Below are positions 2,330 to 60,994 of a stretch of 64,000 bases of DNA, piece after piece (positions within the stretch are counted from its first letter, which is position 1; each line of letters starts with the position of its first letter). Location: assembly GCA_029531755.1 (NCBI GenBank), contig CM055976.1:6912493-6976492 (forward strand), read 5' to 3'. The notes under the pieces are model-generated. The model did not search any database. It was not told the DNA's origin and saw only the letters and a program-made list of their open reading frames with translations. The position numbers and the translations under genes are program-made. The stretch is from Holothuria leucospilota. Lineage: Eukaryota.

Positions 2330-3640
2330 CAACACCTTTTGGTTTCTTGCTTTAGCAAAGGAACCTTTGTAGTCAGGTTGGCGTGTTTGTGTGTGTGTGT
2401 GTCTGTGACGCTTGCTTTGGTACACTGTAACTCAACATGGGAAAGATAGACTAAACTTAAACTTGGTATATGGATGCGTCGTAGTGAGAAGGTGTGCCGT
2501 ATTGTTTTGGGTGGAGGTCATCTGAGGTCACAAGGGGTAAAAAACTGAAAACCTTGTTAACGCGATATCTCAAGTTAGGAAGTTTGGATAGTTTTCTTAC
2601 TTAGTATGTGGATGCGTTGTGGTGAGGGGATAAAAGCTATTGCTTCTGGTGGAGGTCAAAGATCATCTGGGGTCACCGGGGGTCAAACACTGAAAAATTG
2701 TTGTTAACACAGTATCTCAAGGTAGGAAGCTTGGATAGATTTCATACTTAGTATTTGGATGCGTTGTGGTGAGGTGATAAAAGCTATTGCTTTTGGTGGA
2801 GGTCAAAGGTCATCTGGGGTCACCAGGGGTCACACTGAAAACTTGTTGTTAAGACAGTATCTCAAGGTAGGAAGCTTAGATAGATTTCATACTTAGTATG
2901 TGGATGCATTGTGGTGAGGAGATAAAAGCTGTTGCTTTTGGTGGAGGTCAAAGGTCATCTGGGGTCACCAGGGGTCAAACACTGAAAAGTTGTTGTTAAC
3001 ACAGTATCTCAAGGTAGGAAGCTTGGATAGATTTCATACTTGGCATGTGGATGAGTTACGGTGAGAAGATGAATCTTGTCATTTTTGGTGGAGGTCAAAG
3101 GTCATTTGGGGTCACTGAGAGTCAAATACTGAAAACCTTGTTAACACAATATCTCAAGGAAAGAATCTTGGATAGATTTCATACTTGGTATATAGATCCA
3201 CCATAGTGAGAAGCTGTGCCATACAGTTTTTGGTGGAGGTCAAAGGTCATCTGGGGTCACCAAGGGTCAAAAACTGATAACCTGGTTGTTAGCACAGTAT
3301 CTCAATGTAGGAAGCTTGGATAAATTTCATACTTAGTGTGTGGATGCCTTATGGTGGAGAAAATATTTTTTGGTGGAGACCAAAGGTCATCTGGGGTCAC
3401 TGGAGGTCAAACTCTGCAAACGTTTTCAACTCTATATCTCAGTGTAGGAAGCTTGAATAGATCTGCTTTGAGGTGTTGCATTAAATTCAGCAGAAAACCC
3501 ATATGAGTTTTGTCGGATGTCAGAGGTGAAATCACCAGATGCCAAAATGCAAATTCCCAAGAATTTCTAAAGTCAAATATAAGCACAAAACTGTATCATT
3601 CCAACACATTAAGATCACATTCACCCAATGACTGAAAGAT
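2330..3640 (+). repeat. Composite satellite element copy with a GT-rich head, about 7 monomers of the ~147-bp GGTCA satellite (2440-3470), and tail type 2 (3470-3640)
   Basis: Monomer ...ttttggtggaggtcaaaggtcatctggggtcaccaggggtcaaacactgaaaa..ttgttaacacagtatctcaaggtaggaagcttggatagatttcatacttagtatgtggatgcgttgtggtgagg... with a period of about 147 bp (2651 to 2798). Confidence 0.85.
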
Positions 3641-6461
3641 GTGGGACATCTTTCAGAGATGCCAAGTATCTCAATTTTAGTTAAAATTATAGTATTACAA
3701 TTTTAATCCATAATTTTGCCATTATGAAAACCTGCATCAAATACCGCTTTTTAATATTGCAGAAGATTCTCTGCCCACAAAGTAGAGAACTGTCATGAAA
3801 GTTCACTAGACAGACAACATTTGTCCTTTATAAGGACATGTGAGCTTGCAGGAATTGGAAATTGAAATTGATTAATTAAATGCTACTATGGGGTTGTTAG
3901 TTTTATAAAGAGAACTATAAAGTTACTGATCATTTGGATCAGATACCATTGAGCATGCATGAATTGTGATTGCTTCATTGAATAAAACAAATTGTAACTG
4001 TATACTGTCTGAGTTGATATCCCTTGAAGTGTCTGCGTATTTCTTCAGAGCAATTTATTTATGCTTGAATGTGTTAACACAAGATGTGCATTGTCTACAG
4101 AGCAGATTTTGTGCATAGATGAAATACAGGGTAGTCAAAAGTAGCCGGTCACCGGCGGTAAATCGCCGCCTACAGCCTCATTTGCCGCCGCCTACTCTTC
4201 ACTCGATGTCAAAAAAATTTAGTTGCAACCTTCCACTTTTTCTTTTTTTTTCAAATACAATCTGCACATGAATTGATCACATACTTTACTATATCATCGG
4301 TTCTAAAATTGCCAACCCCCAAAAGGGACATCAGTTACAATCCCGTAAAAGAATTGATGATCGGAGATCGCGCACGTGTAAAAGAACTTCCCGCACCGTC
4401 ACTGCCGAAATGCGGGCTGCAGAATAGCATGCACGCATATGCAACTTTGATACTTCAAAGAGTTGGCCTACTGTACACATTACACCGAGCAGCTGCCTTC
4501 AACATGCAGACTACATATATGCGTATTTGTACGTACTGCAGTGCTAATGTCGCACTGAGAGATATTTAATCCCCGCGAAAGGTACATTGACTACATTCTA
4601 ATGTTAAATCAGTTCATTTCGTTCATTCTGCATGCTCACATTGTCATTACAATAAAGATCGGCCACGCAGGCAATCCTTGATTATCACATACACAGTATG
4701 CCGGGCTCGTTAAGAGACGAACTTTCAATTAAAATTTTAACTGTTCGTATCATTTTGAAATAGTTTGCAAAGATGATTTAAACCATCGTTACTCCTTCAG
4801 CCATAGTTAATAGCATGTGTGATCATGTACACGGATTTTTTGACTCCCCAAATGAGGATATTTCAGTCCCAAAATTAACGGTTCGATCGCACATTTGAAC
4901 TACTGCTCTCTGCATATATTTAGTACACAGCATCACTCATTCCAAGAGCAAGACCGTTCGTTGGAACTATCGAAAAGAAAAAGCCCTAAGTGGTCAAGAA
5001 CGGCAAAAGGATTCATATCACATGTATAAAAGACTCTCAAATAACAATCAGTAACATATTCGCACGATTTACTTCGAGAGGTTTTCCTTGCGGGGCATTT
5101 TTCCACAGAGTAGCACTGCACTTTTGCCATTGCCTAACGTGTTATATGCAGGTATGGGCCTACTTTACGAACTTTACCTATAGCTTTATTTCTGAAGTAG
5201 TGATTTTCATGAATTCATACAGGTGCACAGGAGAACAGTGCCCACTGTTTCTGATGTTTTTGTTTTTCACGTGTTACTTAGTGTTTTATTTGTTCTCTTA
5301 TGTATTGTTAAGCAGAGTTTGCTTGTCAGAAGTTGATACAATTAAAGTAAACACTTAGGAGCTTTTTTACATTAGCCTCAATCATAGATGTGTACATAGT
5401 TAGGGGAAAAGGGGCAAATTCAACCTATTATTTTCAGCATATCAATGCCTTCAAACAGGCGTTCACACTAGCACAATGTAGGTTTAGTATGGAATGTATG
5501 TTTCTGGTTTATTGAAGTGGGTGGGATATCATAGGAAGGTACAGAATAAATTTTTCTCCCTAAGACCTTTCAGAATACACAATTAATGCCTTGTATTGGG
5601 TTTTAAGCCACAGGGGTTGGGTACTAGTAGCCTAGCTACCTGGACCTAGCATTGGCTGTGATATTTATGTTCAATAGAAGGGGAGGGGATCCAATAGGAA
5701 TGCACAGAATCGGTAAATTTCTGTACCAAAATTCTGAAATGCAGGCGCCTGAGAAAAATGCCTGGAAGTGGGTTAATTTACATTCATTGGTACCTTTTGT
5801 TAAGGGGATGTATCCTGCCCTACCCATGCATCACGGTCAGGGACTACTTGTTCTTTTACTGTATCACTGTGGAGAGTTGTTCATAGAAAATCGACTAAAC
5901 AGGGAATTTTAAACCCAGCTAGGGGAGGAGTAACTAAACTAAAAGATGGAGGAGAACAGCATTTTTTTAGCTGGAAGTGTATGTCGACAACACCAGCAAT
6001 AATATTTAAAATATTCCTCTAGAAACAGTCTTTTAGGGGCTTATGAAACACTAAAACCTAGGAGCTTCCGGGGGCTTTGCCCCCTGGGCCCCCACCAGAG
6101 TGTTTCCCCTGGGCCCCACTAGGGGCTTTAAGACAGGCCCTGGACCCCACCCGTATGGGCTTCCCGCTTCGCGCTCACCGGGCACGCTACACGTGCACAA
6201 GGTAGTGCTTCCAGGTACGCTGCCTACTTGAGCCTGTGTAGCCTGCTACTCAGAAAAACTTTGACTACCCTGGAAATACTGGTTCATTCAGTAGTTGGCT
6301 CAGTTTCATTACATTCAGCAAGGAACCACAGTGCCCATTGGGCTCATGTTATGTTGTTAAACTAGCAGCACACTTTTGTATTGTAGTACTTGCAACGTCT
6401 TTTAAATGTAGTTGTGCTTTTGATACATGTATTAAATGCTGTAATATGTTTTGTTCCTCAG

Positions 6462-6879: not shown

Positions 6880-7880
6880 AAGGTCAGAACATTGTAAACA
6901 CAAAATCTTAAGAAGGATAACTGTGAGGGATCTCATACTAAGCACGTGAATGGCCCATATTCATGATCGCTACTATTTTTGGTGGATGTCAAATCTCATT
7001 TAGGGTCACAAGAGGTCAAATGGTCAAAAACGTTGTAAATGAGATTTCTCAAAAAGGGTAGCTGTGAGGGATTGCATATGTGGCATGTGGATGGCCAGCT
7101 ATTCAGTAGATGAACACTATTGTTTATGGTGGAGGTCAAAGGCCATTTTGGGTCAACAGAGGTCAAAAGGTCAAAATCCTGTACATATGATATCTCAAGC
7201 AGGGTAGCTGTGAGGGATCTCATATTCCACATGTGGATGGCCCATATTCAGTAGATGATCCCATGTACTTTTTGTGGGCATTTAGGGTCATGAAAGGTCA
7301 AAAGGTCATGATATCTCAAGAAGGGTAACTGTGAGGGATCATATACTTGGCATGTGGATGGCCCATATTCAGTAGATGATCCCTTCTATTTTTGGTAGAT
7401 GTCAAATCTCATTAAGGGTCCTAAGAGGTCAAGTGGTCAAAACCTTTGAAATGAGATTTCTCAAAAAGGGTAATTGGGAGGGATGGCATATGTAACAAGG
7501 AGATGGCCCATATTCAGTCTATGATCTCTTTTATTTTTGGTGGAGGTCAAAGGTCATTTGGAGTCAACAGACGCCAGAAGTACAATTTTTCGGAAAATAC
7601 TGGTAAACGTGGTATCTAAAGCTAGGTAAACAATGGGTATTTCACACTTGACATGTGGATGTTTGATATTGAGAAGATAATCCCTATCGTTTATGGTAGA
7701 AGTCAAAGGTCATGAGTGGTCAAAAGACTAGAACCTTGTGAATGTGATACCTCAAGAAGGATTAATGTAAGAGATCTACTTAAGATGTGGGTGACCCATA
7801 TTTAGTTGATGGCTCTCTTAGTTTGGTGAATGTAAAAAGTCATTTGAAGTGAGTCATCAATGGTCGAAATATGGAAACAT
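6880..7880 (+). repeat. Satellite array, variant B monomers (gggtaactgtgagggatctcatact..gcatgtggatggcccatattcagtagatgatc...ggtggaggtcaaaggtcatttggggtca..agaggtcaaaaggtcaaaa), about 6.5 units
   Basis: Direct reading. It is preceded at about 6808-6835 by a palindrome (acgatagt tgcgtt actatcgt). Degenerate units continue at 8330-8700 and a tail type-1 motif lies at 8925-8960. Confidence 0.75.
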
Positions 7881-9884
7881 GATATTTCAAGAAGGAAAAC
7901 TTGTTTCAATGTCATATGTGGCAGTTAAGTGTGCTCCACATTCATGAGAGAGTCGAAGCACAAGCACAAGTTGAATCATCATTTCACACACGATTGCACT
8001 TGATAGTAATGACTTACGACATCTGCAGGTACAGAAGAATAGAAACAGGCTGTTCTCTTTCACACCCAGACTCCCTTAGAATCTACTTAGTGAATGACCT
8101 ATGACGTAATTCTTTGTTGTCGTGTTGTGTGAGTGTGTACATGCAGTACTGTGACCTTTTTATTGTAGACTGCAGGGAGGAGGTTATAAGCAAACAGCCC
8201 ATTTCCTGTGTGAATGTGTGAGGTTGCTTTTGTATCCTGCAGTCAGTTTTGTTTACTTTAGTCCTAGAATGTAACGCTGTCCGAGAATGTAATGTTCAAG
8301 TCTCGATGTGGTCTCGTCTTGGCATGTTAAGTAGATGATCTTTGTAAGTTTAAGTGATGGCCAAATATCATTTGAGGTGACTAGAGGTCACACTGTGAGA
8401 ACATTGTTAACGAGATAACTTCATGGAAGAAAAACTAAAACACTGAATTTCACAGCTGGTGGTTGGGTGCCTTACATTGATTGCATTTAACCACTAGTGT
8501 CTTTGGTGTAATTAAAAGCTCATTTGAGTTCTGCGGTGGTCAAACTGTGAAAACGTGGTATACTGAGATCTCATAAAGGAATGTATTAGTCTCATACTTT
8601 GCATATGGGTCCCAATATGGAGTGACATCTGTATCATTTATGGTGATGGCCCTTTGTTAGTTGAGGTTACCAGACTTTGTGAAAAGATCCTAAACATGGT
8701 TTGTTATGTTTGTATATGAAACATGTTTGGATCTTTTGTCTGGCATGTAATGGCCAAAATGTATGACCATGTTAACATGAATCAATCTGTTTGGTCTTTA
8801 CCCATGGAAATTTAATGTTTGGTACCTAAATTTATAAAGCACAGTAATTTACAATGAAACTGTGTCAACTTGAAACCACAGTCGTACTACCAATGTATCT
8901 GCATGGTAAGGAATCACTCTATAAGGAATCACTAAGCCTTTTGTCTTTCTGGTTTGCAAGATTGGAAGAAGGAGCACTCATTAAAGTCACTGGCATGGCT
9001 GTCTTATGTTAAAATATTGAAACTGCTGAAGGTATCATGGGAGAATAAAGATCTCCTCCCAACAATGTGGGGCCCTTGAGCCCATCTTAGGGCCACTGGT
9101 AGAGGGGCACTGGTGGAGTCCAGAGGCAATGCCCTGTTGGGGATCCGGGGGAGGGGGAACCCCCAGAAGTCCTGGGGTATTTAGGAAATTGCAAGCATTA
9201 GAATGTTGCTTTAAAGCTTCTTCATATAACATTTGATGGGTACTTAACAGACAATAAAAGTCACAATTTAATAATTTCCAGTTATAGCCGTACTCTGATT
9301 AATAGCTTTCTTGTGTTACATCTAAACAATCCCAATTTTAAAATCTCCAAAATTCACACAGATTGATGTGATAAAAATTAAGTTGCAAATCTCTGAGGAA
9401 AAGCGCCCCCCCCCCCCCCATTGCATGCTTCCATGGCATTAGAATAAAGAGTGCTTTCTAATAAAAGGTCCCTACTAGAGAAATTTGTTTCAACAGAAAT
9501 TAGACATAATGTAAAACTGGTACTGTGCAAGAATAATTTCAATTTTTTGCATGTAATTTTACCAAACAAAAATGTCACAAGTTTTTCTTAAGTATAGTTG
9601 TTATTGGTTGAGAATAGCAGATACTTGTCCCAGTGAAGGAAGGGGAAGGGGGTTAGGTAAGATGGTAACTACTGTATCATGACTTGTTTAGATGGTAGGT
9701 CGTAGATGACTGAATGCATGTGTGTACAAGGCAGCATCTTGCCTGGTGCAACTTTGAATGATCAGCAAACATCATCTAAAGATGGATATTACCAACCAAC
9801 AAGAAAAAGCAAATATCAATATCACTGAAATTATATGGAGAATACAAACACCATAATAGAATACCAAACACCTAAAATATCAAT

Positions 9885-15746: not shown

Positions 15747-15749
15747 TCT

Positions 15750-28894: not shown

Positions 28895-29600
28895 AATTTG
28901 TTTTTGCTTCAGATTTTTGGTTTCAGTGATAAGAGAAATGGATGCATTCATGATGGCCTTAGCGGGTACCAGGGCAGCCGGCGAGAGCTCCGCTCTGGCA
29001 CGTCTTTCCTAGCTCACATGGAGCTCGAAACTGGCGTAGCTGCCCGAAAATTTGGTCACTGCAAACAGAAGTCAGGCGCAGCTGCATGTGTCTGCCTTGG
29101 AGCACAACCCAACCTCAAGCATGTCCCTCAACTCAGTTTCTTTGCAGGCAGCTTCGCTGCTGGGAAATTCCCTTGCATTCCTTACGGTCCTTTCCCAGTA
29201 CCCCGTAAGGCATTGAGTGTGCGTGTGTGTATGTGTGTGTTTGTGACATTTAGCTCATTAACACAATATCTTGAGAAGGGAAACTCTGACAGTTCTCAAA
29301 CTTGGTAAATAGATGCCCCATGTTGAGAAGGAGAACCGTATCGTTTTTGGTAGAGATCAGAGGTCATCTGGGGTCACTGGGGGTCAAACACTGAAAACCT
29401 TGTAAACACGATATCTCCAGATAGAAAGCGTATATGTATTTCATACTTAGTATGTAGATGCGTTATGTAAGGAAATGAATCCTGTTGTTTTGGTGGGGTC
29501 AAAGGTCATCTGGGGTCGCAAAGGGTCAAACAATGAAAACCTTGTTAATGATATATCAAGTTAAGAAGCTTGGATAGATTTCATACGTGGTGTGTTGATG
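28895..29600 (+). repeat. Head (ggtttc...gaaa hairpin type, carrying a ~255-bp inserted segment at 28943-29215) plus about 2 monomers
   Basis: tttttggtttcagtgataagagaaatggatgcattcatgatgg | ccttagcgggtaccagggcagccggcgagagctc...cccgtaaggcattgag | tgtgcgtgtgtg... Confidence 0.7.
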
Positions 29601-29611
29601 CATTACAGTAG

Positions 29612-37450: not shown

Positions 37451-38202
37451 AATCCAATATCGCAAGATACATATTCAGTGAGGGACCTTAAAATCTTGAT
37501 GTGATATTTGAAGTTAAGGAAAATGTCCATTTGAATCTCATATTTGGAGGCATGTATACTCCATATTGAGGTCAGTAAATATTTTATTATTTGATATTTC
37601 GTTAAAAGGTAGCTAGGACTTTATTTCCTTTATTTTGCATTTGTCAACATGTTAAAACCTTTATTTTATATTATACAACCTTTCAAAAAACCTTTACTTT
37701 GTTGAAAAGGCTGTGGGAGCAGTTTAAATGTAAAATTCATGATTTGAAAGTCAGAGTACTTATATACTTTAAGAGCTAAGGAATCACTTAATCCTTTGCA
37801 TGCTCTTTGTGATATTTGATACTTCAGTTTAAGACCCTAGTCAGCAATTTGGCTTCTCTTTTTTGGTTTCAGTAATAAGAGCAACTTTTGAATTCATGAT
37901 GATGTTTGTTTGTGACAGAGTTTTGGTTGGTTAGGGTGTGTACGTATAACACTTTGCTTGTAAGCTCACTATTTCAAGGAGGATCTAGCTGAGAGATCTG
38001 TGCACAGCATATTCAGACCCACAATACTACTGGGACAAAAAAATTGGGAAGGGCCACTCTTTACTCTAGTCATTACTCTCTCATTGTAACATTCCTGTAT
38101 CTGCCTTAGTGTCCAGCAATGATTTGTTCTATTATGGACAGAAGGAACTGCAACGTGTTGTCATTTCTGTAATAGACCTTTAGGGGGAAACTCTCACCAT
38201 TT

Positions 38203-40611: not shown

Positions 40612-41473
40612 TTTTTTTGATTCCTTGCCGAAGGCCGAAGGAATCTATGCAATGGTGATGTCGTGTGAGTGTGGGTGCACTCACAAACGTGGCCTTAGCA
40701 GGTACCAGGGCAGCCGGCGAGAGCTCTCCTAGCTTACGCGTGGCTCAATTGGCGTAGCAGCCCGAAAATTCGGTCACTGCGAAGAGAAATTACATACACG
40801 CAGCTGCAGGTGTTTGCCTTGGAGTGCAGCCCGCCCTCAAGCACGTCCGTCTACTCGGCTCCTTCTGGGGCAGCTTCACTGCTGGGAATTTCCCTTGCAT
40901 TCCCTACGGGGTCCTTTGCCAGTACCTCATAAGGCATCGAGTGTGCATGTGGGTATGTGTGTGTGTATGTGACACTTTTGCTTGTAAACACGATATCTCA
41001 AGAAGGGTAACTCTGAGGGATCTCATACTTAGCCTGTGAATTGCCCATATTGAGTAGATGATCTCTATTATTTTTGGTGGTCAACGGTCATTTGGGGTCA
41101 CCAGAGGTAGAAAGGTTAAATCCTTGTGAACACTATTTCAAGAAGGTTAAATGTGAGGGATCTCATACTAAGCATGTGGATTGCCCATACTGTGTAATTT
41201 TTTGTGCAGGTCAAAGGTCATTTGAGGTCATTTGAGGTCAAAACCTAGTAAACATGATATTTTAAGGAGGATAAATATGAGGGATCCCATACTTGGCCTG
41301 TGGATTGTTTATATTTAGCTTGTAGGTCATTTTTGGGTGACAAGATTTCAGAAGCTTTTGACCTTATTAACATGATATCTCAAGTAGAATAACTGTGTGG
41401 GATCTCATACTTGATTCATGTTTGTACAATATATCCATATGGCAAGGAATCACTAAGCCTTTTGGCTTTCTGG
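40612..41473 (+). repeat. Complete short composite element holding a hairpin head (gattccttgcc..ggaaggaatc) with the ~255-bp inserted segment at 40688-40945, 3 B-type monomers and tail type 1 (41437-41473)
   Basis: Head ttttttgattccttgccgaaggccgaaggaatctatgcaatggtgatgtcgtgtg. Tail ggcaaggaatcactaagccttttggctttctggt. Confidence 0.7.
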
Positions 41474-43101
41474 TGAGGCTAAATAGTTTCAGATGTAGTT
41501 CTAGGGTGGCCATGCATCTGACTTTTTGCCAGATTGTCCAGCTTTTGGGCAGCTTGCCCACTGTTGGGTGTTATTTGATGCCAGACATTGATTTGTCCTC
41601 CTTTTTGGAGGTCTGCAAGATCACAGTGAAAATCTTTTAGGTAATATGAAGGAAAAGATAAATCAGAATTGAATTCATACCTATCACATAAAGCTATTGT
41701 GATGTGAAAATTGATTCTGCAGATATATCTCAAAATATTAGCAGTATTCTGATCAGCCACATTCTGTGCGCTTTCAAAAGTAGTAGGTTGTGACAGTTTT
41801 CCAAAACTTTATACAAGGATATCACATAAGAAGGTAGCATAAGAAGTTCTGTCTGAACCATGTTTTGATCTCAGCGTATTGCATGTGGCCAGTATTGTAG
41901 AAATGAATGCTGTGTCAACCCAAATAATTTTATGCAAAGCAGCATTGGTGTTGAAGATGCAATTGTACTTACAAAAAGTTCAGTTTGAGACCAGCATTAC
42001 TGATATTAGATGAATGGTTGGTGTGAAAGTATGAGTTGAATGCTTAGGCTTATTGCAAAGATTTGTTGACACCTCAAGCCATTTGCGTAGGGGACGGAGA
42101 TGAGGGATTAGCTCTTCTTGCAAAATTTTTGGCCTCAATGAAAGAAAATTTCAAGTCACCGTTGCCTTAATACATTTTAAAAATTTCACTCTCTTAAAAG
42201 ATGTTTGCCCCCGACCCCTTAATGCCTTGTCTGGCTATGGGCCTGTGACATGCATCTGTGATTGAGAATTTCTCCCTTATTTCATTTTTCTTAAAACTGT
42301 CACTGTAACCTTTAAGAAGTGTTTCTCTTGCTGAGTCCAAGGATGTGAGATCAGAGTTCATTTAAGGCTTTTTCACCCACAACTAACAATGGATCTTCTT
42401 TAAAGTTGGTCAGAGTAACTCTTGAATAGTGACACAGATAAGGTGTACAAGAACTTTTCATTTGGGCCTATGTATGTTTGTCTGAAATAAGGTAAAACAT
42501 TTTTATACGTCACGGATACATCAGATTTGCAAATGACAGTGCTAAATGATGAACTGCTTTAAGTTCTGTTTGACACATACATTGCTTGAGGGAATGATTC
42601 TGTTGGCATCATAATTCATCATCATGCATGAGTTGTAAAATTATTTGCTCTACTGGGAACTGTGTATTCTAAGTTCCTTTTGGCACCAGAGAGCTAATGC
42701 CAGATTGTTTACTAACTGTAGTGTTGTATATTGTGTGTAAAGACCAGAAGCTACTGGACTTTTAGATGATGCAAGGAGTTGTGATTAAAAGGAGATCTAG
42801 CAGTTTTTGGTTTCGATGAAAAGAGAAACCTATGCAGTCATGATGGCATGTGTGTAAATGTGTGCATGTGTGTGTGAGTGGTGAGTGAGTGTACTTACTT
42901 TCCATTCAGATTGAGGACCTAAACAATGGATTTCAGGTCCTTAGAAGGAAATACAATAGATTTCTCATGTCCTCAGAAGTTTAACAATGGACAGTCTATT
43001 GTTAAAGTTAGGGTTAAGGAAGCAAACACAATAGAGAAAACAATGAGGTCCTCAAACAGTATGTAAAGCACAACTGTGTGTGTGGGTGTGTGTATGTTTG
43101 T

Positions 43102-43167
43102 GACACTTTTTGATTCCTTGCCGTAGGCAGGCAAGGAATCTATGCGATGGTGATGTCGTGTGTGTGT

Positions 43168-43198
<31 letters not shown>

Positions 43199-45391
43199 GG
43201 TGCGTGTGTGTGTGTATGTGTGTTTGTGACGCTGCTTGTAATCGCGATATCTCAAGATAGGATTGACCAACACTTTTCATATTTGGTATATAGATTTGTC
43301 ATGTTGAGAGGAAGAACCCTATTGTTTTTGGAGGAGGTCGAAGGTCATCGGAGGTCACCAGAGGTCAAAAACCGAAAACCTTGTAATCGCGTTATCTTGA
43401 GATAGGGATGACCGACACTTTTCATATTTGGTATATAGATTTGTCATGTTAAGAGGAAGAACCCTATTGTTTTTGGTAGAGGTCAAAGGTCATCTGAGGT
43501 CACCATAGGTTAAACTGCAAAAACCTCGTAAATGGCTTGTAATCGCGCTATCTTGAGTTAGCGATGACCGACACTTTTCATATTTGGTATATAGATTTGT
43601 CATGTTGAGAGGAAGAACCCTATTGTTTTTGGTGAAGGTCAAAGGTCATTTGAGGTCACCGGAGGTAGAAAGCCGAAAAGCTCGTAATCGCGATATCTCA
43701 AGATAGGAATGACAGACAATTTTCATATTTGATATATAGGTTTGTCATTTTGAGAGAAAGAATCCTATTGTTTTTGGTGGAGTTCAAAGGTCATTTGAGG
43801 TCACCAGAGGTGAAAGACCGAAAACCTTGAAATCACGATATTTCAAGATAGGAGTGGCCTGTATGGATTTGTCGTGTTGAGAGGAAGAACCCGATTAATT
43901 TTGGTAGAGGTCAAAGGTCATCTGAGGTCACCAGAGGTCAAAAACCAAAAAACCTTGTAATCGGGATATCTCGAGATAGGGATGACCGACACTTTTCATA
44001 TTTAGTATGTAGATTTGTCATGTTGAGAGGAAGAGCCCTGTTGTTTTTGGTGAAGGTGAAAGGTCACTTGGGGTCACCGGAGTTAAAAAGCCGTAAAGCT
44101 TGTTAATCATGATATCTCAAGATAGGAATGACAGACACTTTCATATTTGGTATATAGACTTGTTATGTTGAGAGAAAGAATCCTATTGTTTTTGATGGAG
44201 GTCAAAGGTCATTTGAGGTCACTAGAGGTCAAAGACCGAAAACCTTGAAATCGCCATATGTCAAGATGGGAATAGCCTATATAGATTTGTCATGTTGAGA
44301 GGAAGAATCCTATTGTTTTTGGTAGAGGTCAAAGGTCATCTGAGGTCACCAGAGGTTAAACTGCAAAAACCTTGTAAATGGCTTGTAAACACGATATCTC
44401 CACATAGCAATGACCGACACTTTTCTTATTTGGTACATAGATTTGTCATGTTGACAGGAAGAAGCCTTTTGTTTTTGTTGAAGGTCAAAGGTCATTTGAG
44501 ATCACTGGAGGTAAAAAGCTGAAAAGCTCATAATTATGATATCTCAAGATAGGAATGACCGACACTTTTCATATTTGGTATATAGATTTGTCATGATGTA
44601 AGGAAGAACCCTATTGTTTTTGGTGGAGGTCAAAGGTCATCTTGGGTTACCAAACGTCAAAAAGCAAAATTTCCCAAGATTTCCCAAGATTGTAATCTAG
44701 CATCACAGGGGTCAAAAGCATCATTTCCCAAGAATTCCCAAGATTGTTATGTGGGGTCACCAGAGGTCAAAAAGCAAAAATTCCCAAGATTGTTATATGG
44801 GGTCACCAGAGGTCAAAAAGCAAAATATCCCAAGAATTCCCATGATTGCAATCTGGCGTCACTGGGGTCAAAAATCAACATTTCCCAAGAATTCCCAAGA
44901 TCATCATCTCGAGTTATCAGAGGCCAAAAAGCAAAAGCAAAATTTCCCAAGAATTTCCAAGGTTGTTATATGGGGTCACCAGAGGTCAAAAAGCAAAATA
45001 TCCCAAGATAATGATATGGGGTCACCATTGGTCAAAAAGTGAAATTTCCCAAGAATTCCCAAGATAGTCATCAGGAGTCACCAGAGGTCAAACAGCAAAA
45101 TATCCCAAGTATTCCTAAGATCGTCATCTAGGGTCACCAGAGGTCAAAAAGCAAAATTTTCCAAGAATTTTCAAGATCCAAGATCCATTGGAGTTGAATC
45201 CCTTTCAAGACACTTCAGTTTTTCTCTTTTGTTATATTTGGTGGGGTTCAAAGGTCATGTGAGGTCAGCAGAGGTCAAATTGTTAAAACATAAAATGATG
45301 TAGTCAAGAAAGATTAATTTGAGGGATAAACCTCAGTGCAACAAAACGTCCCCATTCGGCAAGGAATCACTAAGCCTTTGGGCTTTCTGGT
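43102..45391 (+). repeat. Complete composite element (2.3 kb) with a perfect 11-bp-stem head hairpin, (GT)n, 9 C-type monomers (43260-44640), a 55-60-bp sub-repeat block (44640-45180) and tail type 1
   Basis: Head gattccttgcc-gtaggca-ggcaaggaatc (43102-43130). Tail ...cctcagtgcaacaaaacgtccccattcggcaaggaatcactaagcctttgggctttctggt (ends 45391). The tail carries ggcaaggaatc, so the two ends form an 11-bp terminal inverted repeat. Confidence 0.75.
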
Positions 45392-46650
45392 CTTGTTTAC
45401 ACAATATCTCAAGAAGGGAAACTCTGACAGTTCTCAAAGTTGGTAGGTAGATGCCCCATATTGAGAGGAAGAACCCTAATATTTTTGGTGGAGGTCAAAG
45501 GTCATTTGGGGTCACCAGGGGTCAAACTCTGAAAACCTTGTTTACACTATATCTCAAGTTAGGAAGCTTGGACAGATTTCTTACGTGGTATGTGGATGTA
45601 TTATGGTGAGAGGAAGAATCGTATTATTTTTGGTGGAGGTCAAAGGTCATTTGGGGTCACCAAGGGTCAAACTCTGGAAACCTTGTTTACACGATATCTC
45701 AAGGTAGGAAGGTTGGATAGATTTCATACTTAGTGTGTGGATGCATTATGGTGAGAGGAAAAACTTCTATTTTTGGTGGAGGTCAAAGGTCATTTTGGGT
45801 CACCAGGAGTCAAACTCTGAAAATCTTGTTTACACAGTATCTCAAGTTAGGAAGCCTGGATAGATTTCATACGTAGGATGTATATGCATAATGGTAAGAG
45901 GAAGAATGCTACTGTTTTTGGTGGAGGTCAAAGGTCACGTGGGGTCACTAGGTATCAAACTCTGGAAACCTTGTTTACATGATATCTCACAGTAGGAAGC
46001 TTGGATAGATATCATACTTGGCATGTGGATGCGTAATCTTCAGAGGTACAAGCATATTAATTTTTGGCGGAGGTCAAAGGTCATTTGTGATTACCAGGGG
46101 TCAAAGTCTGAAAACCTTGTTAACAGGACACCTCGAGGTAGGAAGTTTAGATAGATTTCATACGTAGTTTGTGGATACCTTAAGGTCAAAGGTGGAACCA
46201 TATCATTTTGGGGGGGAGGTTAAAGGTCAAATGGGTTCACTGGGGTCAACCTCTGAAAAGCTTGTTAGCATGATATCTCAAGGTAGGAAGCTTGGATAGA
46301 TTTCATGCATAGTATGTGGATGACTTATGGTGAGAGGAAGTACCCTATTTTTTATGGTGGAGGTCAAAGGTCATCTGGGTTCAAACTCTGAAAACCTTGT
46401 TTACAAGATAGCTCAAATTAGGAAGGTTGGATACTTCCCATGGTGTTGCATTTAATCCATCAGAAAACCCCTGTAAATTTTGTCAGAAATCAGAGGCCAG
46501 CTGAAATTACCAGAGGCCATTAAGCAAAAATGCCCGAGAATTCCCAAGGTCAAATATGAACATGAAACTGTAATTTTCCAGCACTTTAAGATCACATTCA
46601 ACCAATGACTGAAAGAAACAGGACATCTTGGCATTTTTATGGATTACACA
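45392..46650 (+). repeat. Satellite array (A-type monomers, 45400-46420) plus tail type 2 (46420-46650)
   Basis: Monomers ...ggtggaggtcaaaggtcatttggggtcaccaggggtcaaactctgaaaaccttgtttacac.atatctcaag.taggaagcttgga.agatttc.tac... The tail is related to 3470-3640. Confidence 0.8.
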
Positions 46651-49659: not shown

Positions 49660-51810
49660 TTGGTTTCGATGATAAGAGAAACCTATGCATTCATGACGGC
49701 GTGTGTGTATGTATGTGTGTGTGCGTGTGTATGTGTGTGTGTTTGTGACACTTTGCTCGTTAACACGATATCTCAAGAAGGGAAACTCTGACAGTTCTCA
49801 AACTTGGTACATAGATCCCCCATATTGAGAGGAAGAACCCTATTGTTTTTGGTGGGGGTCAAAGGTCACCTGGGGTCACCGGGGGTCAAACTCTGAAAAC
49901 CTTGTTAACACAATATCTTGAGTTAGGAAGCTTGGATGAATTTCATACTTTGTATGTAGATGCGTTATGGTATGAGGAAGAACCCTATCATTTTTGGTGG
50001 AGGTGAAAGGTCATCTGGGGTCACCAGGGGTCAAACCTTGAAAACTTCGTTAACACGATATCTCAAGAAGGGAAACTCTGACAGTTCTCAAACTTGGTAC
50101 ATAGATGCCCCATATTAAGAGGAAGAACCCTATTGTTTTTTGGTGGGGGTCAAAGGTCACCTGGGGTCACTGGGGGTCAAACTCTGAAAACCTTGTTAAC
50201 ACAATATCTTGAGGTAGGAAGCTTGGATGAATTTCATACTTTGTGTGTAGATGCATTATGGTATGAGGAAGAACCCTATCATTTTTGGTGGAGGTGAAAG
50301 GTCATCTGGGGTCACCGGGGGTCAAACCTTGAAAACTTCGTTAACACGATATCTCAAGAAGGGAAACTCTGACAGTTCTCAAACTTGGTACATAGATGCC
50401 CCATATTGAGAGGAAGAACCCTATTGTTTTTGGTGGGGGCCAAAGGTCACCTGGGGTCACCGGGGGTCAAACTCTGAAAACCTTGTTAACACAATATCTT
50501 TAGGTAGGAAGCTTCGATGAATTTCATACTTTGTATGTAGATGCGTTATGCTATGAGGAAGAACCCTATCATTTTTGGTGGAGGTGAAAGGTCATCTGGG
50601 GTCACCGGGGGTCAAACCTTGAAAACTTCGTTAACACGATATCTCAAGAAGGGAAACTGTGACAGTTCTCAAACTTGGTACATAGATGCCCCATATTGAG
50701 AGGAAGAACCCTATTGTTTTTTGGTGGGGGTCAAAGGTCACCTGGGGTCACCAGGGTTCAAACTCTGAAAACCATGTTAACATGTTATCACCAGGTAGGA
50801 AGCTTGGATGAATTTCATACGTAGTATGTAGATGTGTTATGGTAAGAGGAAGAACCCTATTTTTTGGTGGGGTCAAAGGTCACCTGGGGTCACCAGGGGG
50901 AAACCTTGAAAACCGTAACAAATATCTCATGAAGGGAAAGCTTGACAGTTCTCAAACTTTGTACATAGATGCCCCATATGAGAGGAAGAACCCTGTCATT
51001 TTTGGTGGAGGTCAAAGTTCCTGGGGTCACGGGGTTAAACTCTGAAAAACTTGTTAACACGATATCTTCCAGGTAGGAAGCTTAGATTTCATACTTTGTA
51101 GTGTAGATGCATTATAGTGAGAAGATGAATCCTATTGTTTTAGTGGAGGTCAAAGGTCATCTGGGGTCACCAGAGGTCAATGTCTGAAAACCTTGTCAAG
51201 ACGATATCTCCAAGGTAGGAAGCTTGAATAGAATTTCATACTTGGTAAATTGATGTGTTATAGTGAGAAGATGTACCCCTATTTCTTTTGGTGGAGGAAA
51301 AGGTCATCTAGGGTCACCAGGGGTCAAACACTGAAAACCTGTTTTAACACAGTTTCTCAAGGGAGAAAGCTTAGATAGTTTTATACTTTAGTAATGTAGA
51401 TGTGTTATGGTGAAAAGATGGACCCTATTGTTGGTGGGGTTGTGGTAGGTCAAACCGGTAACACAATATCTCACAAGGTAGAAGCAGTTTCCATGTGTTA
51501 TAGTAAAGGTCAAAAAAGCAAAATTTCCCAAAGTTAGATTTCCCATAGACTACATGTAGAATACAAAACTGTATTTTTCCAACATGTCAAGATAGCATTT
51601 GTCACATTGGTAAATTGATGACTGTTTTTGGTGGAGTTGAAAGGTCTCTAGGGTCACCAGGGTCAAACAAGATAGGGGACATCATATAGGCAAATTTCGC
51701 CAGAATTATAAATGGAATACAAAGAACATGTTAAAATAGCATCATCGATATGGGACCTCAATGCATATCATGCACCTCAATGCATTTTTGCATTCTGGTT
51801 AATATGTACT
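49660..51810 (+). repeat. Composite satellite element with a head hairpin (ggtttc-gatgataaga-gaaacc, 49662-49683), (GT)n, a ~290-bp higher-order repeat x4 that is nearly identical (49763-50925), degenerating monomers, and tail type 2 (51500-51810)
   Basis: acacgatatctcaagaagggaaactctgacagttctcaaacttggtacatagat recurs at 49763, 50053, 50344 and 50634, so the period is 290-291 bp and each repeat is a dimer of about 145-bp monomers. The tail ends ...caatgcatttttgcattctggttaat. Confidence 0.85.
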
Positions 51811-55548: not shown

Positions 55549-55619
55549 GATATATATATATATATATATATATAAATATATATATAAATATATATATGTA
55601 TATATATATGTATGTATGT

Positions 55620-55650
<31 letters not shown>

Positions 55651-55660
55651 ATATATATTT
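55548..55660. repeat. (TA)n microsatellite
   Basis: Direct reading. Confidence 0.95.
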
Positions 55661-56479: not shown

Positions 56480-56870
56480 AGAAGCCCTATTGAGTAGAAG
56501 TATGCTGCTTTTGGTAGAAGTCAAAGGACATCTTGGATTGATTGGGTCATCAAAGGTCAAACTCTGAAAAATTTGCAGCCACATATCTTAAGATGTAAAA
56601 AGTATGTATACTTTTCATACTTATCATGTATTTGAATTTGATTAAGTAGGAGAACCCTCTTGTTTTTATAGTGGTGGAAGGTCAACATCTAATGTTACTT
56701 AAGTTCAAAGTCTCAACACCTTACATTACAGGATATTTCATGCTTGGAAACTTGGGAATATTTTATACATGGGAAAGTGTGTATTTGTCACATAAAATCC
56801 TGTTGTTGTGGGTGAAAGGTCATTTGAGATCACCAGGGGTCAGATCTTTGCTTTTTACAGCTGCAAGCAG
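56480..56870 (+). repeat. Degenerate satellite monomers
   Basis: ttggtagaagtcaaaggacatcttgg...ggtcatcaaaggtcaaactctgaaaaatttgcagccacatatcttaagatg... and ...gtgggtgaaaggtcatttgagatcaccaggggtcag. Confidence 0.55.
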
Positions 56871-58559: not shown

Positions 58560-59000
58560 CTTAGGATGAGTAGCAGTAAGGGACCTTGTATGTGTCATGT
58601 AGATATCTCGTATTGAATTGATGAACCTAATTGTTTTTGGTTCATCAGAGGTTAAACTCCAAACATCATGTAAATAAATCGCAAGAGGAGAAACTTGTGT
58701 TAATATCATAGATTGCATTTGGATATCCAATATTGAGGACATGATGTCAAAAATATTTTGCAGAGGTCAAAATATCATTTGAGGTTACTGAAGGTCAAAC
58801 TGTAAAAACCTTGATAAAACTTTGAAAACACAATAATCTCAAAGATAAAAATATGTGTCAATTTTCAGACATGCATGTGGGTATCCCATTTTTAGTGGTA
58901 TTTTCCATATTGTTTATGTTGGAAGTCATAGGTCACTTCAGGTCATCAGAGGTCAATCTGTGAAAACCTCCTCACATGGTTTATCAAGTATTAAACATAT
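58560..59000 (+). repeat. Degenerate satellite monomers
   Basis: gcagaggtcaaaatatcatttgaggttactgaaggtcaaactgtaaaaacc and ggaagtcataggtcacttcaggtcatcagaggtcaatctgtgaaaacc. Confidence 0.55.
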
Positions 59001-60994
59001 ATGGATCTTGTTTCTAGCATGTGACTCTTAACCCTTATCATGCTAAGGGCGACATATGTCTCTATGAGGGCGCTTCACAAATAAAACATTTAATATACTA
59101 TAATTTAAACAAAAAATGCTTCCATTCGTTTTTGGCTTCAACTCTAAGAAATGGTGGCGCTAGACTAGAGTAGGTCATTTCTGGTTAGGAGAGGTTATGT
59201 ACATGCAACCTGCAAGGCTTCAATGCTTCAAAAATGAAGCCCGCCCTCTAAAAAATTCAGCATGATAACTGTTAATTAAACTTAGGAACAAGAAGTTCAT
59301 TTATGACCATTTTAATATGAAATACATCTGCTTAATCTATGCCCATCAATTTTGGTTTTGACCCATATGCAATCATGAAAGTGTATGTGAATGTTTGGGT
59401 GTATTTATGTACCATGTCTGTATGTATGTGTGTGTGTAAGGGTGTACATACAAATGTCTCTATATGTGTTTGTGACACTAAGCTTGAGCATATGATATCT
59501 CAAGATAGGAACAAATTCTCTTTATACTTGATACGTATGTGTCACATTTAGTTGATGCCTTGTTGTTTTTGGTGGAGTTCGAAGATCATAAGGTGTCACC
59601 AGGTAAAGTAATAAAGTCCGCCTAGAAAATCCTGTAGATTAAGATTGATACCTCAACATATGAAGCTTGGATACATAAAGATAATTATAACAACAACAAT
59701 AACAGTTTGTAATGTGCACATGTTTACTCTGTGGGGAGCTCAAGACACAGTGAAAGAAATATGAAGAAGTGAAAAACAGTTAGACAAAATCACCGAAAGC
59801 TTGTCTCATGAGATGGATTTGAAGATGTCTTTTAAAAACTGAGATGCTGATGCATGATTTCAATTCTGGTGAGGTGCATTCCAAGACTATAGGGGCAGCT
59901 GCATACTTGAAGTGACCTATCACCCCAAGAATGTATGGATCTCTGTTCTTGTAGGAGGCACATATTGCTGGAATAAAAGATTCTTCGATGGCAAGTAAAG
60001 GTTACTTAGCTCAGAAATATAGACTGGAGCTATCTTGTTGAGTGTTTGAAGACAATGAGTAGAATTTTGTAGATGACTCTGAATGAAATTGGAAGCCAGT
60101 GAAGGTTGTAAAGTATTGGTGTGATGTGGCAGGATTTCCTTGGCAAAGTAACAGTCTATGCAGCTGTGTTTTGAAGGTGAGTATAAGTTGGTATTGTGAA
60201 AAACAGTACAAAAGTGAGTTTTTGTTATTAGCTCACACATATACACAGTACATGTGTGAGGTTATAGAATGGGGCTGATGGCATCAACTTTTCAACAAAA
60301 AGTCTTCTTTTTGATGTGAGGAGATGTTCGGCTGAAATTTTGGGATATGATTGTTTGTCAGGAGAGCATTAACACCTACCTATTTGCATTCCATTATAGG
60401 AAAGTTAAGTTGGGTTTTAAAGCCGTTTTTGTAGAGCTGAGTTCACTGTGCCTGCTGAACAGTTAGCTGTATGTACTGATAGCAGTGTGCTTGCTTTTGT
60501 GTTCAGTTGTTATCCTGCAAATGGATATGCAGGCTGTTTGAAATTCAGTCCATCAACACACGTGTTTGTTCGTCAAGTGGCCTCTACAGTCTGAAGCAAC
60601 TCTGTGGTCAGTGTGGCTTAACACATGAAAGGAAATAGTCTTAACTTATTAATTGTGGGGATATCTCCCATTCTGTTCTGTTCAATTGAGTTGGTCAAGT
60701 CAAGTAATTGCAATTTAACTGTTTTGAGTTCAAGTGCAGTAGGAGCTTTTTGAGAGTCTGTTTTATTTTGATCAGTGCAAACCCATGCAGTGTTTACTTG
60801 TGGAATCGAGGGTGCGATTAAATGTACTTTGCAATACAAAACAGTTTATATGTACATCATACAAACTTTTTTTCAGTCTTGCTCCTAATAAAAGTGTATA
60901 CAGCCTTTGCAGGCTTGCTTGATATCAGAAAATATGCAGTGATATTTGTAGCTATCTGTCATAAAACTATGTCAGTTGCAGGTTTACATTCCTT

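What the first reader, a model, noticed from the sequence alone, without database searches (positions are those of the whole stretch)
2330..59600. A family of composite hairpin-terminated elements that carry internal ~147-bp satellite arrays
The ~147-bp GGTCA satellite is not free-standing. It repeatedly occurs inside a fixed architecture.
- First comes a 5' hairpin head. Three different stem sequences are seen, but the layout is the same: ggtttc-N10-gaaacc (49662-49683), gattccttgcc-N7-ggcaaggaatc (43102-43130), and acgatagt-N6-actatcgt (6808-6835). Each is followed by cTATGCAtTCATGATGG and a (GT)n tract, then gtgacactttgcttgtaaacacgatatctcaag.
- Then come the monomers, then a 55-60-bp sub-repeat block (ggtcaaaaagcaaaatttcccaagaattcccaagat).
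- The element ends in one of two tails. Both finish with a small hairpin followed by TTCTGGT. Tail 1 is aagcc-tttg-ggctt + tctggt (41462-41473, 45371-45391). Tail 2 is aatgca-tttt-tgcatt + ctggt (26600-26628, 30388-30409, 51792-51810).
- In the two most complete copies (40617-41473 and 43102-45391) the head stem arm gattccttgcc and the tail ggcaaggaatc form an 11-bp terminal inverted repeat.
This looks like a single non-autonomous mobile element family whose cargo is an expandable satellite. A hairpin followed by CTGG then T at the 3' end is reminiscent of Helitron-type termini (CTRR, insertion 5' of T). I could not match the 5' end to the Helitron TC rule, so the superfamily is open.
Basis: seen in the sequence. 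Interest (0 to 1): 0.72.

Follow-up and report, generated by a model that had tools for sequence, protein, structure and literature searches.

The report
Rolling-circle transposon relics carrying satellite arrays
The window holds about 13 copies of a non-coding, Helitron-like (Helentron-type, "HINE") mobile element that carries a ~145-bp satellite array between a hairpin head and a hairpin tail; this architecture is already well described in oysters, flies and mites, so it is real but ordinary, apart from all copies facing the same way.

Summary
About 145-bp GGTCA-rich tandem arrays sit in a fixed frame. The frame reads: T-run, 11-bp 5' subterminal repeat with a complementary inverted repeat (hairpin), TATGCA..TGATGG, (GT)n, arrays, a 56-bp sub-repeat, a 3' subterminal repeat, a small palindrome, then TTCTGG|T.

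I mapped 13 loci. Seven have both head and tail, and head type, tail type and monomer subfamily agree in all seven. Two stem sets (A and B) differ by compensatory changes in head hairpin, head/tail repeat pair and tail palindrome. One A copy (43112-45391) lies inside a B copy; joining its flanks restores an intact B head, which fixes the termini to about 2 nt with no target duplication.

This matches, feature for feature, the published HINE architecture (non-autonomous Helentrons: DINE-1, Cg_HINE).

Corrections:
- The "head" at 6808 is not a head of this family.
- Several coordinates are 10-20 nt off.
- Type B also has an 11-bp subterminal repeat pair.

I could not find an autonomous partner, outside copies or the host species (a marine invertebrate, possibly an echinoderm).

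Two things remain unexplained. All 13 loci are on the + strand (p about 0.0002-0.002). Every monomer carries DR1/DR4-spaced AGGTCA half-sites.

The parts
2341..3652 (+). E1: hybrid head (GGTTTCTTGC-TTTA-GCAAAGGAACC after T-run 2337-2340), (GT)n, ~7 monomers (2420-3553) and a B-type 3' region that stops ~55 nt before the expected end. No 3' subterminal repeat or palindrome.
6882..8953 (+). E2: old, divergent array (6882-8749, with a foreign stretch at 7933-8329) ending in an A-type tail (TAAGGAATCACTAAGCCTTTTGTCTTTCTGGT).
24090..24338 (+). E3: A-type head plus (GT)n and 1.5 monomers, truncated at the 3' side.
24688..26620 (+). E4: complete B element. Head GGTTTCTATGA..GAAACC; arrays 24764-25336 and 25845-26461 split by a 508-bp foreign insert; 56-bp sub-repeats 26316-26483; 3' subterminal repeat TCATCGAAACC at 26587; palindrome AATGCATTTTTGCATT followed by CTGGT.
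28919..30390 (+). E5: complete B element. It carries a ~250-bp element with inverted ends just after the head (28954-29213), a MITE-like (small non-coding transposon) insertion at 29605-30046, sub-repeats at 30088-30248 and a B tail.
30485..33079 (+). E6: complete A-variant element. Head GATTCTTTGCT; array 30555-31145; a 1.77-kb foreign insertion at 31146-32912; tail AGCAAGAAATTCCTAAGCCTATAGGCTTTCTGGT.
36280..37810 (+). E7: old, degenerate A element (head GAGTCCATGC..AAAGGAATGTATGCAAT; array 36447-37473; degenerate tail TAAGGAATCACTTAATCCTTTGCATGCTCTTTGT).
40619..41474 (+). E8: complete short A element. Head hairpin; the same ~250-bp inverted-end insert (about 40690-40940); ~3 monomers; 3' subterminal repeat GGCAAGGAATC at 41441; palindrome AAGCCTTTTGGCTT followed by TCTGGT.
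42809..46640 (+). E9: B element that hosts the nested E10. Its own parts are 42809-43111 (head and (GT)n, interrupted by ~190 bp of other sequence) and 45392-46640 (7 monomers plus a B-type 3' region). It is truncated ~35 nt before the expected end.
43112..45391 (+). E10: complete, youngest-looking A element, nested in E9. It has a perfect 11-bp stem head (43112-43140), (GT)n at 43158-43228, ~10 monomers (43235-44699) and ~10 copies of the 56-bp sub-repeat (44636-45177). The 3' subterminal repeat is at 45358-45368 and the palindrome at 45372-45385, ending CTGGT at 45391.
49662..51799 (+). E11: complete B element. Head 49662-49683; (GT)n 49701-49747; 11 monomers (49756-51406) arranged as a 290-bp dimer higher-order repeat; B tail ending at 51799.
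56494..56844 (+). E12: degenerate monomers only (2.5 copies), with no recognisable head or tail.
58620..59676 (+). E13: degenerate monomers only (58620-59023 and 59480-59676), with no recognisable head or tail.

Best explanation
These are HINEs: non-autonomous, protein-less derivatives of Helentron-type (Helitron-like, HUH Rep/helicase) rolling-circle transposons. They fall into at least two subterminal-repeat families, A (GATTCCTTGCC) and B (GGTTTCGATGA), plus a hybrid head.

Shown here:
- A fixed layout: T-run | 5' subterminal repeat + complementary inverted repeat (hairpin) | TATGCA..TGATGG | (GT)n | a partial monomer always starting in the same phase | ~145-bp array | 56-bp sub-repeat derived from the monomer | ~100-bp unique 3' region | 3' subterminal repeat complementary to the 5' one | 5-6-bp-stem palindrome | (T)CTGG|T.
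- Families A and B keep these pairings through compensatory base changes.
- The copies are separate insertions into T-rich sites, with no target duplication and no coding capacity.
- Arrays change length in place. Each array is more similar to itself than to other arrays, and E11 grew by amplifying a dimer.

Inferred from the known biology of Helitrons and Helentrons:
- A Rep/helicase(-endonuclease) encoded by an autonomous Helentron elsewhere in the genome recognises the head and the tail hairpin on one DNA strand. It nicks at the 5' end, peels off or copies that strand up to the 3' palindrome, which acts as the stop signal, and pastes it between two Ts.
- Copies with a head but no tail (E1, E3, E9) fit premature termination or later deletion.
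- The satellite is passive cargo. It is spread by the element and expands by unequal exchange or replication slippage.
For: Architecture and co-linearity:
- BLAST map of heads, tails, monomers and sub-repeats, motif positions, and head and tail alignments.
- 7 of 7 complete copies pair an A head with an A tail, or a B head with a B tail. Monomer subfamilies follow head type: cluster 12 in the B/hybrid copies E1, E4, E5, E9 and E11, cluster 13 in E10, and other clusters in the older A copies.

Structure under constraint:
- Head hairpins fold with z-scores of -2.9 to -5.4 and tails with -1.9 to -2.8.
- In the head helix 92% of cells are paired, against 32-62% when the partner columns are slid. 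A<->B double changes occur at two pairs.
- In the tail helix 86% are paired, against 17-46% when slid, again with double changes at two pairs.
- The 5'/3' subterminal repeats are complementary in both families.

Discrete termini:
- E10 sits inside E9. Joining E9's two flanks gives a sequence that aligns across the junction to the intact E11 head region.
- 10 of 10 heads are preceded by 2-7 T. All 8 tails end CTGG followed by T.
- There is no target duplication.

Independence:
- There is no similarity between the flanks of different copies.

No coding capacity:
- No Rep/helicase domain appears in any of the 19 ORFs scanned against Pfam: 9 of the 10 ORFs of 150 aa or more, plus 10 of the 95-150 aa ORFs lying outside the retroelements. 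The only domain hits are from retroelements.

Match to the published definition:
- HINE/DINE-1 (PMC4067079) and Cg_HINE (PMC7492417).

Array dynamics:
- In E11, monomers two apart are 0.90 identical against 0.78 for neighbours. Within-array best matches exceed between-array ones.
Against: - No autonomous Helentron with matching ends is in the window, so the trans-mobilising enzyme is inferred and not shown.
- No copy outside the window could be retrieved. The only collection scan gave three chance bacterial hits. Copy number, insertion polymorphism and true empty sites are therefore untested.
- The single 'empty site' is a diverged paralogue inside another copy, so the ends are known only to about 2 nt.
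- The covariation rests on only two lineages (A and B), so each compensated pair is a single evolutionary event.
- The 3' end (hairpin, a few bases, CTGG, then T) also fits the canonical Helitron CTRR|T rule.
- I could not compare the elements with Repbase or Dfam.
Confidence: 0.82

Rival explanations
1. A non-autonomous canonical Helitron (Helitron1 type: 5' TC ... hairpin ... CTRR 3', inserted between A and T). Here the inverted repeats would be incidental.
For: The 3' end is a short GC-containing hairpin followed within ~6 nt by CTGG (which fits CTRR) and then T in all 8 tails. There is no target duplication and no coding capacity.
Against: - No copy starts with TC. All 10 heads start with G(G/A)TT after a T-run, so the 5' flank is T and not A.
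- 11-bp subterminal inverted repeats, plus an inverted repeat next to the 5' one, are conserved by compensatory change. This is the Helentron/HINE signature and is absent from canonical Helitrons (PMC4067079).
Confidence: 0.07
2. A tandem-repeat-containing MITE moved by a cut-and-paste (DDE) transposase. Similar bivalve elements (pearl, DTC84) were first classified this way.
For: It has inverted repeats near both ends, small size, no ORFs and internal tandem repeats. PMC3879986 described such elements as MITEs.
Against: - No target-site duplication at any of the 7 complete copies or at the nested insertion.
- The ends are asymmetric: the head carries a hairpin and a microsatellite, and the tail carries an extra palindrome and CTGGT beyond the repeat.
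- The inverted repeats are subterminal, not terminal.
- The comparable bivalve elements have since been reassigned to HINEs (PMC7492417).
Confidence: 0.05
3. Not mobile: a locally duplicated satellite region in which the recurring 'heads' and 'tails' are parts of a larger duplicated unit.
For: All copies are clustered in 57 kb and all face the same way. Tandem segmental duplication would produce that pattern.
Against: - Self-comparison with the elements masked finds no similarity between the sequences that separate the copies.
- The copies are of different ages and of two end-families.
- One copy is cleanly nested inside another.
- Copies are bounded by different unique flanks.
Confidence: 0.03

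Closest known systems
Cg_HINE elements of the Pacific oyster (Vojvoda Zeljko et al. 2020, PMC7492417), in particular the two-array types and Cg_HINE_6 (147-bp monomer)
   Same: - Same order of modules: 11-12-bp 5' subterminal repeat, a 7-12-bp complementary inverted repeat 1-12 nt away, a microsatellite, a variable spacer, then short arrays (mostly up to 5 copies) of 140-180-bp satellite-like monomers in fixed orientation.
- Same 3' side: a ~60-bp conserved right flank holding the 3' subterminal repeat and a palindrome.
- Oligo-T/TT insertion sites, no target duplication, and frequent insertion into other repeats.
- Some elements carry two consecutive arrays.
   Different: - Sequence identity could not be tested, because the consensus sequences are not in the held text.
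- The microsatellite here is (GT)n, not the GTCY-type tetranucleotide reported there.
- The window has ~39.5% GC, and its retroelement ORFs best match echinoderm and hemichordate proteins, not mollusc ones. The host is therefore probably not an oyster.
- Here the second array is a deletion derivative of the first.
DINE-1/INE-1 of Drosophila and the HINE families of mite and mosquito (Thomas et al. 2014, PMC4067079)
   Same: These define the class: 13-bp subterminal repeats; a short inverted repeat 3-22 bp from the 5' repeat; a microsatellite; central repeats; a 3' stem-loop; TT target with a variable string of Ts at the boundary; non-coding; derived from Helentrons.
   Different: In those species, partners 95-98% identical to the HINEs were identified; here none was. 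The central arrays here are longer and satellite-like. There is no evident sequence relationship.
pearl (Crassostrea virginica, Anadara), DTC84 (Donax trunculus) and MgE (Mytilus)
   Same: Composite non-autonomous elements with a microsatellite, up to ~5-6 central ~160-bp repeats related to satellites, and inverted-repeat-bearing flanks. They are now regarded as HINE-like (PMC3879986; PMC7492417).
   Different: They were described as MITEs.
Canonical Helitrons (Helitron1; for example Helraiser/HeliBat)
   Same: Single-strand, hairpin-terminated 3' end close to CTRR followed by T; no target duplication; head-only truncated copies and read-through variants are expected from a rolling-circle or peel-and-paste mechanism.
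   Different: Canonical Helitrons have 5' TC, insert between A and T, and lack subterminal inverted repeats (tested here and not met).

Membership tests
HINE (non-autonomous Helentron; Thomas et al. 2014) | 11-13-bp subterminal inverted repeats at both ends | tested here: met
   A: GATTCCTTGCC / GGCAAGGAATC, 11/11 in E8 and E10. B: GGTTTCGATGA (E9, E11) / TCATCGAAACC (E4), 11/11. Older copies are degenerate.
HINE (non-autonomous Helentron; Thomas et al. 2014) | A short inverted repeat complementary to the 5' subterminal repeat, a few bases downstream (or a palindromic subterminal repeat) | tested here: met
   Loop of 7-10 nt. 92% of cells are paired across 10 heads, against 32-62% in slid controls, with compensatory A/B changes at 2 pairs.
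HINE (non-autonomous Helentron; Thomas et al. 2014) | A short stem-loop (palindrome) downstream of the 3' subterminal repeat, at the 3' end | tested here: met
   AAGCC-TTTG-GGCTT (A) and AATGCA-TTTT-TGCATT (B), 3-4 nt after the subterminal repeat. 86% paired against 17-46% when slid; 2 compensated pairs.
HINE (non-autonomous Helentron; Thomas et al. 2014) | Microsatellite after the head and central tandem repeats | tested here: met
   (GT)n at 43158-43228, 49701-47 and elsewhere. ~145-bp arrays of 1.5-11 copies, always starting at the same monomer phase (profile position ~74).
HINE (non-autonomous Helentron; Thomas et al. 2014) | Insertion into TT / T-rich sites with a variable T string at the boundary and no target-site duplication | tested here: met
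   2-7 T precede 10 of 10 heads, and T follows CTGG in 8 of 8 tails. The nested copy lies in a T-run of its host (empty-site paralogue GACACTTTGCT) with no duplication. Only one empty-site comparison was possible, and it uses a diverged paralogue.
HINE (non-autonomous Helentron; Thomas et al. 2014) | No coding capacity | tested here: met
   No Pfam domain was found in the ORFs scanned that overlap or adjoin the elements. All Pfam hits in the window belong to retroelements.
HINE (non-autonomous Helentron; Thomas et al. 2014) | An autonomous Helentron (Rep with Helentron-type motif 2, helicase, AP endonuclease) sharing the same termini | not testable with these tools
   None is in the window. 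The host genome is not available in any searchable collection, and the metagenome scan gave only chance hits.
Canonical Helitron (Helitron1) | 5' end TC and insertion between host A and T | tested here: not met
   All heads begin G(G/A)TT after a host or element T-run.
Canonical Helitron (Helitron1) | 3' hairpin ~10 nt upstream of a CTRR terminus | tested here: met
   Hairpin, then 1-2 nt, then CTGG, then T, in 7 of 8 tails.
TIR-type MITE (cut-and-paste) | Terminal inverted repeats flanked by a fixed-length target-site duplication | tested here: not met
   The repeats are subterminal and the ends are asymmetric. No duplication is seen at 7 complete copies or at the nested insertion.
Cg_HINE_6 / Repbase Helitron-27_CGi, Helitron-N18_CGi (same family by sequence) | [quoted passage not shown] | not testable with these tools
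   The consensus sequences are not in the held paper text or supplements: Table S2 is illegible and the CL6 sheet is truncated.

The most novel reading that the evidence does not exclude
All 13 HINE loci across 57 kb, including the nested one and copies of very different ages and of two end-families, are on the same strand, although they are separate insertions and T-runs and A-runs are equally common in the surrounding DNA. The most novel reading is that Helentron-type elements integrate strand-specifically into single-stranded DNA at replication forks. Their local orientation would then record fork direction, as shown for the bacterial HUH transposons IS608 and ISDra2 (reviewed in PMC5371812). 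That would be the first such evidence for a eukaryotic rolling-circle transposon. More ordinary causes are not excluded: orientation-dependent selection inside a long transcription unit, or preferential same-orientation insertion next to or into resident copies.
Probability: 0.12. Interest if true: 0.7.

Novelty: new member of a known kind. Interest (0 to 1): 0.3.

Why it matters
The finding shows cleanly how short satellite arrays get scattered through a genome. They ride inside rolling-circle transposons and then grow in place. This mechanism has already been established for oysters and Drosophila.

Its value here is threefold:
- It is an annotation. About 31% of this window is HINE-derived.
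- It would extend the pattern if the host proves to be an echinoderm or another non-mollusc. I found no paper in the held library describing HINE-borne satellites there.
- It raises two leads: the strictly uniform orientation of the copies, and the nuclear-receptor-type AGGTCA half-site arrays carried by every monomer.

Tried and rejected
1. Direct sequence comparison with published Cg_HINE and C. gigas satellite consensus sequences failed. Table S2 of PMC7492417 is illegible, the CL6 sheet is truncated, and the satellitome supplement has no matching monomer. PMC11136912 has no held supplement.
2. A full-text search for the subterminal-repeat, palindrome and monomer strings returned only PPAR/RXR response-element papers, because the monomer contains the DR1 consensus.
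3. Host identification was not achieved.
   - An exact look-up of a window ORF found nothing.
   - The ORF of the DIRS-like retroelement best matches sea-cucumber and other echinoderm proteins, at only 42-59% identity.
   - The LINE ORF best matches an unnamed Tara Oceans plankton contig (92%) and a 482-kb unnamed ENA contig. The nearest named hit is a hemichordate at 46%.
   - No host-gene domain was found in the further ORFs scanned.
4. A metagenome scan with the 21-nt B tail gave three hits, all in GC-rich bacterial-looking contexts without monomers, so these are chance matches.
5. Rfam and tRNA scans found nothing in the elements. The only hit is a tRNA-like sequence at 18308-18381.
6. Segmental duplication as the cause of the cluster was rejected.
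7. A strand bias in T-run availability as the cause of the uniform orientation was rejected: 123 T5+ runs against 110 A5+ runs outside the elements.
9. Yang & Bennetzen 2009, on Helitron clustering and orientation in maize, is not held. I know only that Helitrons insert preferentially near other Helitrons (PMC12477314).

Full report
**What is in the sequence**

The window is eukaryotic, at about 39.5% GC, and rich in repeats. It contains:
- a DIRS-like retroelement at 10.7-15.7 kb;
- a Penelope-like element at 19.4-21 kb, with reverse transcriptase and GIY-YIG domains;
- LINE fragments at 22.9-23.6 and 61-63.3 kb.

Tandem Repeats Finder reports ~145-bp arrays at seven places and 56-60-bp arrays at three. 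A monomer profile built by iterated nhmmer finds 102 matches between 2420 and 59676. Every one is on the + strand.

**Anatomy**

I used BLAST with head, tail, monomer and sub-repeat queries, regular-expression positions, direct reading and multiple alignments. Together these give one layout:
1. A run of 2-7 T.
2. An 11-bp repeat: type A GATTCCTTGCC, type B GGTTTCGATGA, or a hybrid GGTTTCTTGC at 2341.
3. A 7-10-nt loop, then the complement of that repeat, which makes a hairpin.
4. TATGCAnTnnTGATGG/TC.
5. (GT)n.
6. GTGACACTTTGCTTGTAAACACGATATCTCAAG. This is the last part of a monomer; eight arrays start at profile position 74, one at 79 and one at 65.
7. 1.5 to 11 monomers.
8. Often a block of 56-bp units. 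These are a shortened monomer: they match profile positions ~38-100 and end in the same CAAGAT.
9. About 100 bp of unique sequence.
10. The reverse complement of the 5' repeat (A GGCAAGGAATC, B TCATCGAAACC).
11. Three or four bases, then a small palindrome (A AAGCC-TTTG-GGCTT, B AATGCA-TTTT-TGCATT).
12. (T)CTGG followed by T.

**The copies**

I count 13 loci.
- Seven have both ends: E4 24688-26620, E5 28919-30390 and E11 49662-51799 are B/B. E6 30485-33079, E7 36280-37810, E8 40619-41474 and E10 43112-45391 are A/A.
- Head and tail types never mix.
- Monomer subfamilies follow head type. One cluster covers all B and hybrid copies, E10 has its own, and the older A copies have others.
- E1, E3 and E9 have heads but lose the last 35-55 nt or more.
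- E2 has only a tail.
- E12 and E13 are eroded arrays.
- Several copies have been hit by other insertions: 25337-25844, 29605-30046 (with inverted ends) and 31146-32912. The family is therefore not all young.

**More than chance, and under constraint**

- A loose head pattern gives 8 hits against 1.6 expected. The specific motifs occur only in these positions and only on this strand.
- As single-stranded DNA, the head hairpins fold with z-scores of -2.9 to -5.4. The tails give -1.9 to -2.8.
- Across ten heads, 92% of stem cells pair, against 32-62% when the partner columns are slid. Two positions switch between A-T/G-C and C-G/T-A between families A and B.
- Across eight tails, 86% pair, against 17-46% when slid, again with two compensated positions.
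- The 5'/3' repeat pair is likewise complementary within each family.
- Only two lineages are compared, so each compensation is one event. Still, three separate pairings being maintained argues that they are recognised as structures.

**Separate insertions with discrete ends**

- With the elements masked, the window shows no similarity between the stretches that separate the copies. Segmental duplication is excluded.
- E10 lies inside the head region of E9. Joining 43050-43111 to 45392-45470 gives a sequence that aligns at about 90% straight across the junction to the intact E11 head: GACACTTTTT|CTTGTTTACAC against GACAC-TTTGCTCGTTAACAC.
- This places the ends of E10 within about 2 nt of 43112 and 45391. 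The insertion is in a T-run and has no target duplication.
- Flanks of the other complete copies also show no duplication.

**What it is**

The feature list is the published definition of HINEs, the non-autonomous partners of Helentrons:
- 11-13-bp subterminal inverted repeats;
- a short inverted repeat next to the 5' one;
- a microsatellite and central repeats;
- a 3' stem-loop;
- TT target with a variable T string;
- no coding capacity (PMC4067079).

It also matches the oyster Cg_HINE elements, whose central repeats are 140-180-bp satellite-like arrays and which sometimes carry two consecutive arrays (PMC7492417). The 3' end (hairpin, then CTGG, then T) does resemble the canonical CTRR|T end.

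None of the 19 ORFs I scanned against Pfam has a Rep or helicase domain. The elements must therefore be moved in trans.

**How it most likely works**

This part is inferred. A Helentron Rep/helicase nicks one strand at the head. It displaces or copies that strand until it meets the tail palindrome. It then joins the strand into a T-rich target.

Head-only copies fit early termination or later deletion. The satellite is cargo whose length changes in place. In E11, monomers two apart are 90% identical against 78% for neighbours, which is a recently amplified 290-bp dimer. Each array is closer to itself than to any other array.

**What could not be done**

- The host was not identified. Retroelement ORFs point to a marine invertebrate. 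The nearest named relatives are echinoderms (42-59%) and a hemichordate (46%). A 92% match comes from a Tara Oceans plankton contig.
- No outside copy was found.
- No comparison with Repbase, Dfam or the Cg_HINE consensus sequences was possible.
- I found no paper in the held library on Helitron-borne satellites in echinoderms.
- The family is therefore best called a new member of a known kind, pending a database check.

**Unexplained observations**

1. All 13 loci face the same way. The two-sided binomial p is 0.002 for 10 loci and 0.0002 for 13. They are nevertheless independent insertions of different ages and families. T-runs and A-runs are equally frequent outside the elements (123 against 110), so target supply does not explain it. 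Candidate causes are:
   - selection inside a transcription unit;
   - preferential same-sense insertion beside or into resident copies (Helitrons are reported to insert near other Helitrons; PMC12477314);
   - strand-specific integration at replication forks, as in the bacterial HUH transposons IS608 and ISDra2 (PMC5371812).
2. Every monomer carries RGGTCA-A-AGGTCA-N4-GGGTCA-N4-GGGTCA.
   - There are 36 exact DR1 matches against 0.01 expected, and 49 DR4 matches against 0.04 expected.
   - This is the best-conserved block of the monomer, and it is the part retained in the 56-bp units.
   - It is the consensus for nuclear-receptor direct repeats. Whether it is bound by a host factor or by the transposase, or is merely inherited, is unknown.

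**Verdict**

The kind is already well described, so overall interest is modest. The orientation pattern is the one feature worth a genome-wide follow-up.

Noticed in passing
window 2341-59676 (all 13 element loci): Every HINE locus and all 102 monomer matches are on the + strand (binomial p about 0.0002-0.002). The copies are independent insertions, and T-runs and A-runs are equally common outside them. Other transposons in the window lie on both strands.
   Followed up: partly
window, each monomer, e.g. 45492-45524 and 49856-49888: Each ~145-bp monomer holds four direct (A/G)GGTCA half-sites spaced as DR1, DR4, DR4. That includes the exact nuclear-receptor DR1 consensus AGGTCAAAGGTCA (36 copies against 0.01 expected). 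It is the most conserved block of the monomer and the part kept in the 56-bp sub-repeat.
   Followed up: partly
window 28954-29213 and about 40690-40940: The same ~250-bp sequence, with ~17-bp imperfect inverted ends (GCCTTAGCAGGTACC...CAGTACCTCATAAGGC), sits between the head and the (GT)n tract in two elements of different families (E5, type B; E8, type A) at ~84% identity. It is either a small transposon that targets the microsatellite or an optional module exchanged between elements.
   Followed up: partly
window 9903-10036 and 16876-17008; ORFs 10774-15746: A 134-bp inverted repeat (97% identical) brackets three + strand ORFs (gag-like, reverse transcriptase, tyrosine-recombinase-like). 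This looks like a nearly intact DIRS-type retroelement. Its recombinase ORF best matches sea-cucumber proteins at 58-59%.
   Followed up: partly
window 54460-55660 and 18215-18920: A 312-bp unit repeated three times at 99% identity (54628-55551) is flanked on both sides by long (TA)n tracts. The sequence next to it (55635-56032) matches 18524-18919 in inverted orientation, which itself adjoins (AT)n tracts and a tRNA-like sequence (18308-18381, - strand). This is probably another repeat family with AT-microsatellite ends.
   Followed up: no
window 29605-30046: A 440-bp insertion inside the E5 array has inverted ends (GGGTTGGGC...GCCCAACC) and is probably a MITE. A 508-bp foreign segment at 25337-25844 splits the E4 array, and a 1.77-kb one at 31146-32912 splits E6.
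   Followed up: no
window 27691-28287 (+): A 198-aa ORF is built of ~20-aa Ser/Pro/Gln-rich repeats ending in FG/FD (..QQLPPSPSPRLFGSS..). It has no Pfam match. It could be an exon of an FG-repeat protein or just a minisatellite. An overlapping - strand ORF reflects the repetitiveness.
   Followed up: no
It folds (z = -2.9) but lacks all other head features. Its origin is unknown.
   Followed up: partly
window 19398-20967 (-) and 61027-63269 (+): A Penelope-like element (reverse transcriptase plus a weak GIY-YIG match) and a LINE fragment. The LINE C-terminal ORF is 92% identical to a protein on a Tara Oceans marine metagenome contig, which suggests that the host or a close relative occurs in plankton samples.
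   Followed up: partly
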